Shown: piece by piece, positions 17,859 to 21,061 of the stretch
Layout: every line of letters begins with the position of its first letter
Numbering within the stretch: position 1 is the first letter of the stretch
Assembly (NCBI GenBank): GCA_025349965.1
Contig: CP075337.1
Span: 360,001-392,000 of the forward strand
DNA: 32,000 nucleotides
Direction: 5' to 3'
Source of the DNA: Candidatus Saccharimonadota bacterium
Lineage (GTDB): Bacteria; Patescibacteriota; Saccharimonadia; Saccharimonadales; Saccharimonadaceae
Program-made: the position numbers and the translations under genes
Notes under the pieces: generated by a model
What the model was told of the DNA's origin: nothing
Seen by the model: the letters and a program-made list of their open reading frames with translations, nothing else
The model's database searches: none

Positions 17859-18461
17859 ATGGCTGAACAAGCACAAGCTCAGGCGGCTCCAACTCAAGCA
17901 CCTCGCGCGCCACGTGGCAACGGTCCACAGGGGCGTGGCCAAGGTCGCGGACGCCGTGATCAGGCTCCACAAGAGCCAAAGCAATTTGAAGAAGTAGTAA
18001 TCAACATCGACCGTGTGTCACGTGTGGTAAAGGGTGGACGTCGTTTCCGCTTTAAGGCACTCGTTGTTGTGGGCGACCGCAAGAACAAGGTTGGTGTGGG
18101 TGTTGCAAAGGGCGCTGACGTACAGACTGCTGTACAGAAGGCAACTGATGTAGCTAAGAAGAATCTTATTACTTTCCCACTTGTAAACGGTACCATTCCA
18201 CACGACAACGAAATCAAGTACTCAGGTGCTCGCGTGCTTCTTAAGCCAGCTGCTCCAGGTACTGGTATCATCGCCGGTGGTGTTATCCGTTCTATCATTG
18301 GTACAACTGGTATTACAAATCTGCTTTCAAAGTCACTCAACTCAACAAACAAGGTAAACATCGCGTATGCTACTATTGAAGCACTTCGCGCACTTGTTCC
18401 TAAGGAAGAATGGCTCAACGCTCCAGCACCTAAGAAGGCTGCAAAGAAGGAGGCTAAGTAA
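17859..18461 (+). CDS. rpsE: 30S ribosomal protein S5 with a ~45-aa Q/A/P/RG-rich N-terminal extension
   Basis: 200 aa. The core reads INIDRVSRVVKGGRRFRFKALVVVGD. The extension reads MAEQAQAQAAPTQAPRAPRGNGPQGRGQGRGRRDQAPQEPK. Confidence 0.95.
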   Translation: MAEQAQAQAAPTQAPRAPRGNGPQGRGQGRGRRDQAPQEPKQFEEVVINIDRVSRVVKGGRRFRFKALVVVGDRKNKVGVGVAKGADVQTAVQKATDVAKKNLITFPLVNGTIPHDNEIKYSGARVLLKPAAPGTGIIAGGVIRSIIGTTGITNLLSKSLNSTNKVNIAYATIEALRALVPKEEWLNAPAPKKAAKKEAK

Positions 18462-18943
18462 TGACTAAGTACAACGAACTTCTCGTAGAAGCTAATAAGA
18501 GCAAAAAGCGCGTTGGTCGTGGTATTGCTGCTGGTCAGGGTAAAACTGCTGGTCGCGGTACTAAGGGTCAAAAGTCTCGTACTGGTAAGAAGCTTAACGC
18601 TACTTTCCAGGGTGGACAACGCGGTATTGTACTTTCTGTGCCAAAGGCACGCGGGTTTAAGAGCCTTCGTACTCCTGCGCAGGTTGTGTACCTCGATACA
18701 CTGAACGGTTTTGAAGGAAAGACTGTTGATAACATGACTCTCTTTGAACAGGGATTCATCGCAACTCCATTCCACACCGTTAAGGTAATTACTCGTGGTG
18801 AACTTTCTAAGGCACTTACCGTAAAGGTAGCTGGTGCAAGTAAGTCATCACAGGAAGCGATTGCAAAGGCTGGCGGTTCTTTTGAAAAGACTGCTGTGCC
18901 GCTTAAGCAAAGCGCAAAGGCTGCGGAAGCGGCTGAGAAGTAA
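18461..18943 (+). CDS. rplO: 50S ribosomal protein L15
   Basis: 160 aa. KKRVGRGIAAGQGKTAGRGTKGQKSR. It starts at the rpsE stop (TAATG), leaving no room for rpmD. Confidence 0.96.
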   Translation: MTKYNELLVEANKSKKRVGRGIAAGQGKTAGRGTKGQKSRTGKKLNATFQGGQRGIVLSVPKARGFKSLRTPAQVVYLDTLNGFEGKTVDNMTLFEQGFIATPFHTVKVITRGELSKALTVKVAGASKSSQEAIAKAGGSFEKTAVPLKQSAKAAEAAEK

Positions 18944-18968
18944 GGCTGAACAGGGAAGTTTCCTTGTT

Positions 18969-19003
18969 AAAAATACCCCGTCGGCTTGACGGGGTATTTT
19001 TTT
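18969..19003 (+). terminator. rho-independent terminator after rplO
   Basis: Perfect 10-bp stem ATACCCCGTC/GACGGGGTAT (18973-18997) followed by T7. Confidence 0.8.
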
Positions 19004-19090
19004 ATTGACGTAATTGCTGTCTTGGTGGTGGTGTTCTCTTTTTTTGCTAAATCAAAATATATATAAAAAGTGTATGTATTACGATTATAG

Positions 19091-19113
19091 AAAAAACTCC
19101 ACAAGGGTGGAGT
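19091..19113 (-). terminator. rho-independent terminator for the small high-GC ORF
   Basis: Stem ACTCCAC/GTGGAGT (19096-19113) preceded on the + strand by A6, which gives a U-run after the hairpin on the minus strand. Confidence 0.6.
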
Positions 19114-19132
19114 TCGGGCGACTTTGAATGTG

Positions 19133-19179
19133 CCTTTGTGGCCCCTACCGCTTACTACAGCGTATCGGGGCCACAAAGG
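19133..19179 (-). other. 13-bp perfect inverted repeat immediately 3' of the small high-GC ORF
   Basis: CCTTTGTGGCCCC (19133-19145) pairs with GGGGCCACAAAGG (19167-19179) across a 21-nt loop that has further internal pairing. It lies 14 nt downstream of the ORF stop on the minus strand. Confidence 0.6.
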
Positions 19180-19192
19180 GTGTCGTTGGAGG

Positions 19193-19456
19193 TTAGGCGA
19201 CCCCGAGCGCCGAGTGGCGAACACTCTCGCGGATGGGGCCATCGTTCGGATCGAGCTCGAAGCTCGAGACCTCGTTGAGCCGACGCGTATTGGTGGCGAT
19301 CTTGTGCGTCTCGCCCTTGCCGATGTGGCGGACCTTCCGGTCGTGGCTGTCCTGCTTCTTGCGCAGGTTGCCACGGTTGCGTCCGTGCTTGGTGTAGGCG
19401 GGTTTCTCGCTCAGGGCGTGGCGCGACTCTCGTGCGGTCTTATCGGTACGCGACAT
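19193..19456 (-). CDS. small (87 aa) highly basic orphan protein encoded in a high-GC island
   Basis: The hand-counted third-codon-position G+C (GC3) in this frame is 74/87 (85%). GAGAGAGGAAG SD lies 6 nt upstream of the ATG, and a hairpin plus terminator lie downstream. The sequence MSRTDKTARESRHALSEKPAYTKHGRNRGNLRKKQDSHDRK... matches no family I recognise. Confidence 0.65.
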   Translation of the reverse strand: MSRTDKTARESRHALSEKPAYTKHGRNRGNLRKKQDSHDRKVRHIGKGETHKIATNTRRLNEVSSFELDPNDGPIRESVRHSALGVA

Positions 19457-19645
19457 TGCGCACTTCCTCTCTCATTGTTGATGTACAACGACAGTTCACT
19501 CTTTAATGAACGTAGAATAGATTATAGCATAAATATCAAATAAAGTCAATATCTACCCCTTGAATAAAAAATAGTGTAGTATAGAAGAAGTAATTGAGTA
19601 ATCTTTTCGGGGTATTTCTGAAAAAACTAAAAGGTTGAGTGACTG

Positions 19646-21061
19646 ATGAACTGGAAAACAATTTTCAAATCATTTAAGAATCGAGATATGCAGCGTCGAC
19701 TGCTAACTGTTCTTGGTATTATTATTGCATATCGTCTGTTGGCGCATGTTCCCGTGCCTATTGCAGAGCCAACGCAGCTACGTGAAGTAATTAATGGCGT
19801 TATTGGTGGAACTGACTTTGGTGGATTCCTCAATCTTCTTTCGGGTGGTGCGCTTGCGAGCTTCTCTATTGTGCTCGTAGGACTTACCCCGTTCATTACG
19901 GCGTCTATTATCTCGCAACTCCTCACCAAGGCTATTCCGCGCCTTGAAGAACTCAATAAAGACGGTGAATCAGGACGACGCAAGATTAACCAGTGGACTC
20001 GTCTTGCAACAGTACCGCTCGCGATTGTCCAGTCGATTGCCTTTATCTTTATCCTTCGCCAGACAGTGCTAGCGGGCAATACAACAGTGCTTGCAGACCC
20101 GACTGCGCTTGAATGGATTGTATCTGTTGGAACTATGACCGCAGGTGCCGTGCTTCTTATGTGGCTCGGCGAGCTCATTACCGAACAGGGTGTTGGTAAT
20201 GGTATTAGCCTTCTTATCTTCGCGGGTATTATTAGCCAGCTTCCATCTATGCTTTCGTCATTCGGCACGGCGTTATTTGACACAAGCAAGGGTGCCCTTA
20301 ATGTTTTCAACTGGTTTACCGTTCCTGTTAATCCCACTATATTCTGGGTAGTTCTGGCGCTGTTATTGGTGTCGCTGATGTTGCTCTATTTCCTTGTGAA
20401 GATTAATGAAGCACAGCGTGTCATTACTATTAATTACGCGAAGCGTGTTCATGGCAATAGTAGCTATGGTGGCGTAAAAAGCATCCTTCCAGTGAAGCTT
20501 ATCGCAGCTGGTGTGATTCCTGTGATTTTCGCGGTTGCGTTCTTATCACTCCCCGCATTCATTGGACAGGTATTGAAGGCGTCCGGCAACGAAGCGTATG
20601 CCGCGCTCGCGAACAACCTCATTACATGGTTCCAGGCTCCAAACCCAGGTGCATTTACCGGGTCTGAATGGCAGGCATTTATCTATCCAGCAACATACTT
20701 TGTTCTTGTTCTTGTATTTACCTACTTCTATACGGGTATTGTATTCAACTCAAGTGAAATCTCTGAGAATCTTCAAAAGCAAGGCGGGTTTATTGAAGGT
20801 GTTCGGCCTGGAAAGCAAACCGAGAAATACCTCTCTGGTACCATGAATCGTCTCCTTCTTTTCGGATCAGTCGTACTTGGGTTCATTGCAGTTACGCCGT
20901 TTATTATTGAGTACTTCCTTGCGCAGTTCGCTGGAATTACCAATACGAATCTTTCAATTGGTGGTACTGGACTCTTGATTGTTGTGTCTGTAGGCCTTGA
21001 ATCACTTCGTCAAATCAACTCGCGTGCGTTGATGGTGACGTATGATGATTATGACCGGTAG
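19646..21061 (+). CDS. secY: preprotein translocase subunit SecY
   Basis: 471 aa with 10 hydrophobic segments. RLLTVLGIIIAYRLLAHVPVP...GELITEQGVGNGISLLIF is typical SecY. Confidence 0.97.
   Translation: MNWKTIFKSFKNRDMQRRLLTVLGIIIAYRLLAHVPVPIAEPTQLREVINGVIGGTDFGGFLNLLSGGALASFSIVLVGLTPFITASIISQLLTKAIPRLEELNKDGESGRRKINQWTRLATVPLAIVQSIAFIFILRQTVLAGNTTVLADPTALEWIVSVGTMTAGAVLLMWLGELITEQGVGNGISLLIFAGIISQLPSMLSSFGTALFDTSKGALNVFNWFTVPVNPTIFWVVLALLLVSLMLLYFLVKINEAQRVITINYAKRVHGNSSYGGVKSILPVKLIAAGVIPVIFAVAFLSLPAFIGQVLKASGNEAYAALANNLITWFQAPNPGAFTGSEWQAFIYPATYFVLVLVFTYFYTGIVFNSSEISENLQKQGGFIEGVRPGKQTEKYLSGTMNRLLLFGSVVLGFIAVTPFIIEYFLAQFAGITNTNLSIGGTGLLIVVSVGLESLRQINSRALMVTYDDYDR

What the first reader, a model, noticed from the sequence alone, without database searches (positions are those of the whole stretch)
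19091..19460. High-GC island with an orphan basic ORF inserted between rplO and secY
Seen: my hand count of 19201-19440 gives 157/240 = 65% G+C. Hand-counted 60-nt samples of secY and rplD give 37% and 47%. The minus-strand 87-aa ORF has GC3 of 74/87 (85%), compared with about 41% in the first 39 codons of rplD. It is highly basic (R/K/H-rich). Downstream it has a 13-bp perfect GC-rich inverted repeat and then an AT-context terminator, while its SD and upstream region are AT-rich like the host genome. The compositional step coincides almost exactly with the CDS plus its 3' hairpin. Established: rplO-secY are normally adjacent, and such codon bias is typical of high-GC phyla such as Actinobacteria. 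Inference: this is a horizontally acquired gene. If the organism is a Saccharibacteria-like epibiont, whose known hosts are Actinobacteria, it could be a host-derived gene domesticated under native expression signals inside the most conserved operon of the genome.
Basis: partly seen in the sequence, partly recalled or inferred. Interest (0 to 1): 0.62.

Follow-up and report, generated by a model that had tools for sequence, protein, structure and literature searches.

The report
Foreign-looking orphan gene between rplO and secY
A tiny Saccharibacteria genome carries, between two core genes, a real 560-base insert holding one small GC-rich gene with no known relative; it looks imported, but no donor can be found and public annotation reads it on the wrong strand.

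Summary
Window 19116-19470 is 65% G+C in a 47.7% G+C, 780-kb genome. The minus-strand 87-codon ORF (19456..19193) has GC1/2/3 of 0.61/0.47/0.84, above all 608 long ORFs of the genome (maximum 0.75).

It is not an assembly artefact. A metagenome sample, assembled by two pipelines, gives the same locus at 99.3% identity across both compositional edges. Its three differences inside the ORF are all synonymous in the minus frame. All three change the residue in the plus-strand frame that public annotation calls.

The gene has a promoter of the genome's own type, a Shine-Dalgarno site, a GC-rich hairpin and an intrinsic terminator.

The host-derived reading is not shown. There is no homologue in Pfam, NCBIfam, PHROGs, PADLOC, PDB, 1.84 billion representative proteins, phage, plasmid, viral or metagenome collections. 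Six-frame searches of about 800 sampled actinobacterial genomes, 39 congeners and 400 sampled Patescibacteria also found nothing.

The site is not the interior of an operon. In this genus rplO ends in a terminator and secY has its own promoter. The gap ranges from 147 to 1249 bp, with unrelated contents.

Verdict: a species-specific, compositionally foreign ORFan cassette at a recurrent insertion site. This scan has noted the same kind of islet in other Saccharibacteria genomes.

The parts
18461..18943 (+). rplO (uL15), the last gene of the upstream ribosomal-protein transcription unit
   Evidence: The 160-aa ORF hits PF00828 in the identical protein of the second assembly. It is found in 37 of 39 congeners.
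18969..19001 (+). rplO intrinsic terminator: a 14-bp perfect hairpin flanked by an A run and a T run, so it could act in both directions
   Evidence: Inverted repeat I1. An equivalent hairpin plus T run follows rplO in relatives L033-L037.
19006..19566 (.). About 560 bp found only in this species: AT-rich spacer, GC-rich gene, AT-rich promoter region. The closest congeners have 65-100 unrelated bases here.
   Evidence: Spacers of 28 congeners share only the rplO-terminator end and the last 60-90 nt before secY. There is no DNA match in 39 genus genomes.
19094..19115 (-). Intrinsic terminator of the minus-strand gene: a 9-bp stem with a 4-nt loop, followed by TTTTTC
   Evidence: Terminator scan and RNA fold.
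19133..19179 (-). GC-rich 3' hairpin (13-bp perfect stem plus an inner 4-bp stem) with no U tract. It still lies within the high-GC segment.
   Evidence: The 116-nt 3' end folds at -47.7 kcal/mol, z = -6.0. The pattern was not found in metagenome or viral contigs.
19193..19456 (-). 87-codon ORF (9.9 kDa, pI 10.7, predicted disordered). I take this to be the true coding frame.
   Evidence: GC1/2/3 is 0.61/0.47/0.84. The protein is identical in the second strain, and all 3 differences are third-position synonymous. AF2 gives pLDDT 60 and no secondary structure.
19463..19473 (-). Shine-Dalgarno region GAGAGAGGAAG, with its AGGA core 8 nt upstream of the ATG
   Evidence: Read directly from the sequence.
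19521..19549 (-). Sigma-70-type promoter TTGACT-17-TATAAT with an extended TG, 11 of 12 matches. It would give a leader of about 57 nt.
   Evidence: Promoter scan. It resembles other strong promoters of this genome, aTTGACTTTTT...TTATGCTATAAT. It is identical in the second strain.
19214..19543 (+). The 109-aa plus-strand gene called by public annotation (141 aa in the second assembly). I read it as the shadow frame of the real gene.
   Evidence: P0002 and the called gene in L063. GC1 is 0.84 and GC3 0.61. All 3 strain differences change its residues. It runs across the compositional edge, and the scan found no promoter for it.
19575..19585 (+). Conserved secY promoter -10 region (TGTAGTATAGA; TGTAGTATAAT in other congeners), followed by the conserved secY leader
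   Evidence: Aligned spacers of congeners.
19646..21061 (+). secY
   Evidence: 471-aa ORF, PF00344.

Best explanation
The island is a real, self-contained, one-gene cassette on the minus strand. It lies inside a roughly 560-bp species-specific insert in the gap between two transcription units. The upstream unit ends with rplO and its terminator; the downstream unit starts at secY's own promoter.

A sigma-70-type promoter (19549-19521) fires away from secY. It would give a transcript of about 425 nt: a 57-nt leader, a Shine-Dalgarno site, 87 codons, a GC-rich stem-loop and an intrinsic terminator.

The coding part has the codon usage of a high-GC organism and was most likely acquired horizontally and fairly recently. 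Its silent sites have not drifted toward the genome's composition, and it is missing from all congeners. The donor is not in any collection searched, so an actinobacterial host or one of its phages is plausible but not shown. Entry by natural transformation and illegitimate recombination at a permissive site is an inference.

The product is a 9.9-kDa, very basic, probably disordered protein. My best guess is a nucleic-acid- or ribosome-binding accessory protein (inference from composition only). It appears to be maintained: it is identical in two strains.

Shown: composition, frame, signals, presence in two independent samples, absence from relatives, variability of the site. Inferred: transfer, donor type, expression, function.
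For: - Composition and frame.
- Expression signals.
- Independent assemblies of another sample (an ENA MAG and a Logan contig) are collinear at 99.2-99.3% and span both GC edges.
- The 3 of 3 in-ORF differences are synonymous in the minus frame and non-synonymous in the plus frame.
- Flanking genes show 12 synonymous and 2 non-synonymous differences in 1130 codons, so the island has diverged together with its neighbours.
- No match in 39 same-genus and 16 same-order genomes. The junction lacks it in 28 congeners.
- The junction is a variable site holding unrelated inserts: an NYN-domain gene, a 261-280-aa family with a decayed remnant of it in a fourth genome, and other orphans.
- The genome has other genes with elevated GC3. 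One is a thyA whose nearest non-Saccharibacteria relatives are Actinobacteria at 52-56% identity.
- Saccharibacteria are naturally competent and grow on Actinobacteria (PMC10633639).
- Horizontal transfer and genomic islands are common in Patescibacteria (PMC12455944).
Against: - No homologue was found anywhere, so transfer is inferred from composition and distribution only.
- The AT-rich promoter and terminator flanks are also unique to this species. How a GC-rich gene-sized piece came to sit exactly between working native-type signals is unexplained.
- There are no target-site duplications, terminal repeats or mobility genes.
- Structure prediction gives no fold.
- Evidence for selection rests on only 3 substitutions (p about 0.04).
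- There is no transcript or protein evidence.
Confidence: 0.55

Rival explanations
1. It is foreign DNA with no function: a recently captured scrap of high-GC DNA whose open frame and nearby signals are tolerated leftovers at a junkyard site, on its way to decay.
For: No homologue in any database. Predicted disorder. The same junction in relatives holds ORF-less inserts of 500-750 bp and a decayed gene remnant. Substitution density in the insert (6 in 560 bp plus an 11-nt indel) is about twice that of the flanks.
Against: The GC-rich segment coincides with a complete unit of Shine-Dalgarno site, ORF and hairpin rather than a random gene fragment. A near-consensus promoter and a terminator bracket it. 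The promoter, Shine-Dalgarno site, ORF product and hairpins are all unchanged between strains, while the indel and two further changes fall in spacer DNA.
Confidence: 0.2
2. It is not a recent import from a high-GC organism. It would be a member of a Saccharibacteria/CPR-internal pool of orphan cassettes whose G/C-ending codons are kept by selection or by an unknown bias, and which are exchanged between epibionts at permissive sites.
For: Earlier notes of this scan describe GC-rich orphan genes in other Saccharibacteria that are conserved only within the phylum and keep a high GC3 (unchecked AI notes). No actinobacterial donor was found in about 800 sampled genomes read in six frames. The promoter is of the native type. 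The thyA orthologue in another Saccharibacterium keeps an elevated GC3 (0.63 against flanks of 0.47) after 18% protein divergence.
Against: No relative in 39 congeners, 16 other genera of the order, or 400 sampled Patescibacteria read in six frames. None among 1.84 billion representative proteins, although wrong-strand gene calls could hide such genes from protein databases.
Confidence: 0.15
3. The publicly annotated plus-strand protein (109-141 aa) is the real gene.
For: Two annotation pipelines called it. It is the longest ORF in the island.
Against: Its GC1/2/3 is 0.84/0.47/0.61 within the island, the mirror of a coding pattern. It crosses into AT-rich DNA. The scan found no promoter for it, and I see no well-spaced Shine-Dalgarno site. 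All 3 strain differences change its residues. It has no family or homologue.
Confidence: 0.03
4. It is an assembly chimera with host (actinobacterial) reads from a co-culture.
For: Cultivated Saccharibacteria are sequenced together with a high-GC host. The compositional edges are sharp.
Against: The same sequence, carrying its own strain-specific differences, occurs in another sample assembled by two pipelines. Contigs there span both edges. The insert is framed by working signals. No actinobacterial genome contains it.
Confidence: 0.02
5. It is a GC-rich structured non-coding RNA gene.
For: The minus-strand RNA folds better than shuffles (z = -4.8), mostly because of the two 3' hairpins. GC-rich islands in AT-leaning genomes are often RNA genes.
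Against: No Rfam match at gathering score or at E<=1. Strong three-base periodicity and third-position-only substitutions. Absent from congeners.
Confidence: 0.03

Closest known systems
Compositionally atypical, horizontally acquired genomic islets and ORFans (the Lawrence-Ochman type of argument; HGT and genomic islands in Patescibacteria, PMC12455944)
   Same: Atypical G+C and codon usage. Patchy, species-specific presence. Location between conserved genes. No detectable relatives.
   Different: It is only one gene of 264 bp. It has no integrase, tRNA site or flanking repeats. No donor or phylogenetic incongruence can be shown. The expression signals are of the recipient's type.
Host-to-epibiont gene transfer in Saccharibacteria (acquired genes in mammal-associated lineages, PMC7427843; natural competence, PMC10633639)
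   Same: The recipient is an epibiont of Actinobacteria with a DNA-uptake route. The same genome has a thyA whose nearest non-Saccharibacteria relatives are Actinobacteria.
   Different: The documented cases have identifiable homologues in donor phyla. This gene has none.
Variable 'replacement' loci flanked by conserved genes, as in capsule or O-antigen-type hot spots (from memory)
   Same: Conserved flanks (rplO and its terminator; the secY promoter) with unrelated contents in different congeners, including decayed remnants.
   Different: The site lies within the ribosomal-protein/secY cluster and carries single small genes, not functional pathways.
Small basic intrinsically disordered nucleic-acid- or ribosome-binding proteins, such as E. 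coli Sra or lambda N-type arginine-rich proteins (from memory; a lead only)
   Same: Size, pI near 10.7, absence of hydrophobic core, predicted disorder.
   Different: No sequence similarity was detected to any family. No binding target is known. Membership is not claimed.

Membership tests
Horizontally acquired genomic islet / ORFan | Base composition and codon usage atypical for the recipient genome | tested here: met
   65% against 47.7% G+C. GC3 is 0.84 against a genome maximum of 0.75. Codon-choice log-likelihood favours an actinobacterial model.
Horizontally acquired genomic islet / ORFan | Patchy distribution: absent from close relatives at the same site | tested here: met
   Absent from 39 same-genus genomes and from the rplO-secY gap of 28 of them. 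Present in two strains of the species.
Horizontally acquired genomic islet / ORFan | Identifiable donor lineage or phylogenetic incongruence | tested here: not met
   No homologue in any protein, genome, phage, plasmid, viral or metagenome search.
Horizontally acquired genomic islet / ORFan | Mobility hallmarks (integrase, tRNA target, flanking direct or inverted repeats) | tested here: not met
   Flanking repeats are no better than chance: GATTATAG is 8 bp, and the best flank alignment has p = 0.08. No copy elsewhere in the genome.
Actinobacterial (host-derived) gene | A homologue in Actinobacteria, their phages or plasmids | tested here: not met
   Six-frame HMMER over 401 sampled Actinomycetales and 401 sampled Actinomycetota gave only chance-level hits (8 at E<=0.01 where about 4 are expected). 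Phage and plasmid tblastn and blastn found nothing. These are samples, not whole groups. The strain's own host genome was not available.
Integron-type gene cassette | Promoterless ORF followed by an attC-like imperfect hairpin that recurs in an array | tested here: not met
   A 3' hairpin exists, but the gene has its own promoter. The hairpin and island occur once in the genome and nowhere in metagenome or viral contigs.
Known RNA family (Rfam) | Covariance-model match | tested here: not met
   Nothing at gathering score or at E<=1.
Any curated protein family (Pfam, NCBIfam, PHROGs, PADLOC, PDB sequences) | Profile or sequence match | tested here: not met
   No match at E<=1 in PHROGs and PADLOC or at E<=10 in Pfam and NCBIfam, for the 87-aa ORF. 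The alternative frames gave nothing in Pfam (four ORFs) or PHROGs (the plus ORF). The two PDB hits, at E about 1, are designed helices and I disregard them.

The most novel reading that the evidence does not exclude
Saccharibacteria may repeatedly build new genes by capturing gene-sized pieces of high-GC DNA, taken up by natural competence from lysed actinobacterial hosts or their unsampled phages. The pieces would be wired to native promoters at operon boundaries such as the rplO-secY gap. This 87-aa basic disordered protein would then be one functional product of that process, for example an RNA- or ribosome-binding or host-directed factor. Such cassettes would also be systematically hidden from protein databases, because gene callers read them on the wrong strand.
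Probability: 0.15. Interest if true: 0.6.

Novelty: new member of a known kind. Interest (0 to 1): 0.3.

Why it matters
- It shows continuing gene gain in a 0.78-Mb epibiont genome, at a site usually treated as invariant.
- It corrects a wrong-strand gene call. The true 87-aa product is missing from public protein collections, so genes of this kind may be under-counted.
- The rplO-secY gap is bounded by a terminator and a promoter and naturally tolerates inserts from about 0.1 to 1.2 kb across the genus. That marks it as a candidate neutral site for genetic work in cultivated Saccharibacteria.
- On its own the gene is an ordinary ORFan islet. A claim of host origin would need a donor.

Tried and rejected
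- **Read-level check:** Independent assemblies were used instead.
- **Donor search:** nothing was found with the search for homologous proteins, phmmer against 1.84 billion representatives (the single hit is a spurious match to a 622-aa tandem-repeat protein), or tblastn and blastn against phages and plasmids. Peptide-pattern scans of genome, metagenome and viral contigs were also empty. Six-frame searches of sampled Actinomycetales, Actinomycetota and Patescibacteria gave nothing real. The hairpin pattern was absent from metagenome and viral contigs.
- **Alternative frames:** no family was found. The plus ORF finds only this genome's own wrong-strand call.
- **Non-coding RNA reading:** rejected by the periodicity and by Rfam.
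- **Target-site duplication, or duplication of the secY promoter at the left edge:** the best local alignment of the two AT-rich flanks is not significant (p = 0.08).
- **Pairing of the 16 nt after the stop codon with the leader and Shine-Dalgarno site:** the energy is -13.9 kcal/mol, which beats shuffles (p 0.002-0.01). However, 1.7% of 707 own ORFs do as well. I keep it only as a weak lead.
- **Structure:** AF2 without an alignment gave pLDDT 60, pTM 0.12 and no secondary structure, so no fold search was run.
- **Matches of 19518-19560 in four relatives:** these are promoter look-alikes at other loci, not the junction.

Full report
**What is there**

The window lies at 360,001-392,000 of a single 780,698-bp contig with 47.7% G+C. 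Three things point to a group-1 (Nanosynbacter-like) Saccharibacterium. Earlier notes of this scan say so. A Saccharibacteria record is the closest relative of the genome's thyA. The G+C of 47% matches the group-1 value given in PMC7427843.

- Positions 19201-19440 are 65.4% G+C, a value reached by 0.14% of all 240-nt windows.
- The minus-strand ORF 19456..19193 (87 aa) has GC1/GC2/GC3 of 0.61/0.47/0.84.
- The 608 long ORFs of the genome have a mean GC3 of 0.46 (sd 0.06, maximum 0.75).
- Among 2324 ORFs of 60-150 aa in all frames this one ranks third. The two above it are shadow frames of other GC-rich genes.
- Its synonymous codon choice fits a small actinobacterial model better than the genome's own. 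Only 1 of 768 own ORFs does the same.
- G+C falls to 15-35% within about 20 nt on either side of the unit formed by the Shine-Dalgarno site, ORF and hairpin.

**Which strand**

The three-base periodicity marks the minus frame as coding. That frame is preceded by a near-consensus promoter, TTGACT-17-TATAAT with an extended TG at 19549-19521. This promoter resembles other strong promoters of the same genome. A Shine-Dalgarno site (GAGAGAGGAAG) lies 8 nt before the ATG. The ORF is followed by a 13-bp GC-rich hairpin and then a classical terminator.

Public annotation instead calls a plus-strand protein: 109 aa in this genome (P0002) and 141 aa in a second assembly. That frame has GC1 of 0.84 and GC3 of 0.61 and runs out into AT-rich DNA. 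The scan found no promoter for it. This explains why the 87-aa product is on record nowhere.

**Is it real**

However, the exact uL15 protein is also encoded in another sample. That sample was assembled once as an ENA MAG (a 408-kb contig) and once by Logan. Both are collinear with the window at 99.2-99.3% identity, and their contigs cross both compositional edges. A chimera peculiar to one assembly is therefore excluded.

Between the two strains the 560-bp insert carries six substitutions and one 11-nt indel. The three substitutions inside the ORF are all third-position and synonymous in the minus frame (T22, H24, D72). All three are non-synonymous in the annotated plus frame. The chance of 3 of 3 being synonymous is about 0.04. 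Neighbouring genes show 12 synonymous and 2 non-synonymous differences in 1130 codons. The island has therefore diverged along with its neighbours. The promoter, Shine-Dalgarno site and both hairpins are unchanged.

**Where it sits**

The idea of an insertion inside the most conserved operon needs correcting. In 28 same-genus genomes the distance from the end of rplO to secY ranges from 147 to 1249 bp:
- 13 genomes have a short gap (under 300 bp).
- 15 genomes have inserts of 494-1249 bp.

Only two pieces are shared across these gaps: the rplO terminator end, and the last 60-90 nt before secY with a conserved -10 element (TGTAGTATAAT or TGTAcTATAGA). The middles are unrelated. They include:
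- an NYN-domain gene;
- a 261-280-aa family in three genomes, with a decayed remnant in a fourth;
- other orphans;
- nine inserts without a convincing ORF or Rfam match.

The junction is thus an operon boundary and a recurrent insertion or replacement site. In this genome the unique segment is about 19006-19566. It includes the AT-rich promoter and terminator regions as well as the GC-rich core.

**Where it came from**

No relative of the 87-aa protein was found in any of these searches:
- Pfam, NCBIfam, PHROGs, PADLOC and PDB sequences;
- the word-indexed 5.8-billion-cluster search;
- an exhaustive phmmer of 1.84 billion representatives, whose one hit is a spurious match to a 622-aa tandem-repeat protein;
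- phage and plasmid collections, by protein and by DNA;
- genome, metagenome and viral contig scans;
- 39 congeners and 16 other genera of the order;
- 400 sampled Patescibacteria;
- six-frame searches of 401 sampled Actinomycetales and 401 sampled Actinomycetota. The first gave 8 hits at E<=0.01 where about 4 are expected by chance.

The genome does contain other genes with elevated GC3 (13 of 608 long ORFs have GC3 of at least 0.65). They include LAxTG-type surface proteins. They also include a thyA whose nearest non-Saccharibacteria relatives are Actinobacteria at 52-56% identity. The orthologue of that thyA in another Saccharibacterium still has a raised GC3. Another small GC-rich ORF, at genome 629839-630102, is likewise unique among the 40 genomes of the genus.

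Foreign origin from a high-GC donor is therefore a reasonable inference. Natural competence is a plausible route (PMC10633639). An actinobacterial host origin is not demonstrated.

This scan's earlier notes report similar GC-rich orphan islets in other Saccharibacteria. Some are conserved only within the phylum. That keeps open a rival: a CPR-internal cassette pool with a maintained composition.

**What it does**

The product is 9.9 kDa with pI 10.7 and GRAVY -1.36. It has no hydrophobic segment and is predicted to be disordered. My working model is a cytoplasmic, nucleic-acid- or ribosome-binding accessory protein, expressed from its own promoter divergently from secY. This is inference from composition only.

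The 16 nt after the stop codon can pair with the leader and the Shine-Dalgarno site at -13.9 kcal/mol. But 1.7% of the genome's ORFs score as well, so I do not build on it.

**Verdict**

- This is a new member of a known kind: a horizontally acquired ORFan islet.
- Two useful by-products are a wrong-strand annotation and the recognition of the rplO-secY gap as a variable, permissive site in the genus.

Noticed in passing
window 18944-19645, and loci L033-L061 (the rplO-secY gaps of congeners): The rplO-secY gap is hypervariable across the genus, from 147 to 1249 bp. Thirteen genomes have short gaps and 15 carry unrelated inserts. Every genome inspected has a terminator after rplO and a separate secY promoter.
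   Followed up: yes
loci L044, L045, L047, L048, L050, L053, L055, L056, L059 (gaps of 494-748 bp): Nine congeners have inserts at this junction of 45-50% G+C (200-nt maxima of 0.54-0.60) with no convincing ORF, no Rfam match and no similarity to each other. L044 holds a decayed remnant of the 261-280-aa gene seen in L039-L041.
   Followed up: partly
L039, L040, L041 (minus-strand genes of 261-280 aa in the gap): A gene family with no Pfam match, one predicted membrane segment and a conserved LHExEH-type motif occupies the same junction in three congeners.
   Followed up: no
genome 629839-630102 (+), outside the window: A second small ORF (87 aa, GC1/2/3 of 0.68/0.44/0.78) is also unique among 40 genomes of the genus. 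It lies in a region (624-630 kb) with several other high-GC3 genes.
   Followed up: partly
genome 431939-434002, 457122-459083, 624490-625506 (outside the window): Large surface proteins with LAxTG-type sorting signals and repeated domains have a GC3 of 0.68-0.75, well above the genome mean of 0.46.
   Followed up: no
genome 421731-422741 (outside the window); L009-L018: The thymidylate synthase gene has a GC3 of 0.74. It is 82% identical to another Saccharibacteria copy (GC3 0.63, flanks 0.47) and 52-56% identical to Actinobacteria (Microbacterium, Kocuria, Bifidobacterium, Janibacter). This looks like an older, partly ameliorated transfer.
   Followed up: partly
window 19057/19058: The second strain has an 11-nt insertion (TATATATGCGG) in the AT-rich spacer to the left of the island, which suggests that this part is unconstrained.
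   Followed up: yes
window 18985-18999 and 19603-19617: The 3' arm of the rplO terminator (GACGGGGTATTT) resembles a conserved motif in the secY leader (TTCGGGGTATTTCTGAAA, also present in congeners). In the relatives inspected the terminator sequence does not co-vary with it.
   Followed up: partly
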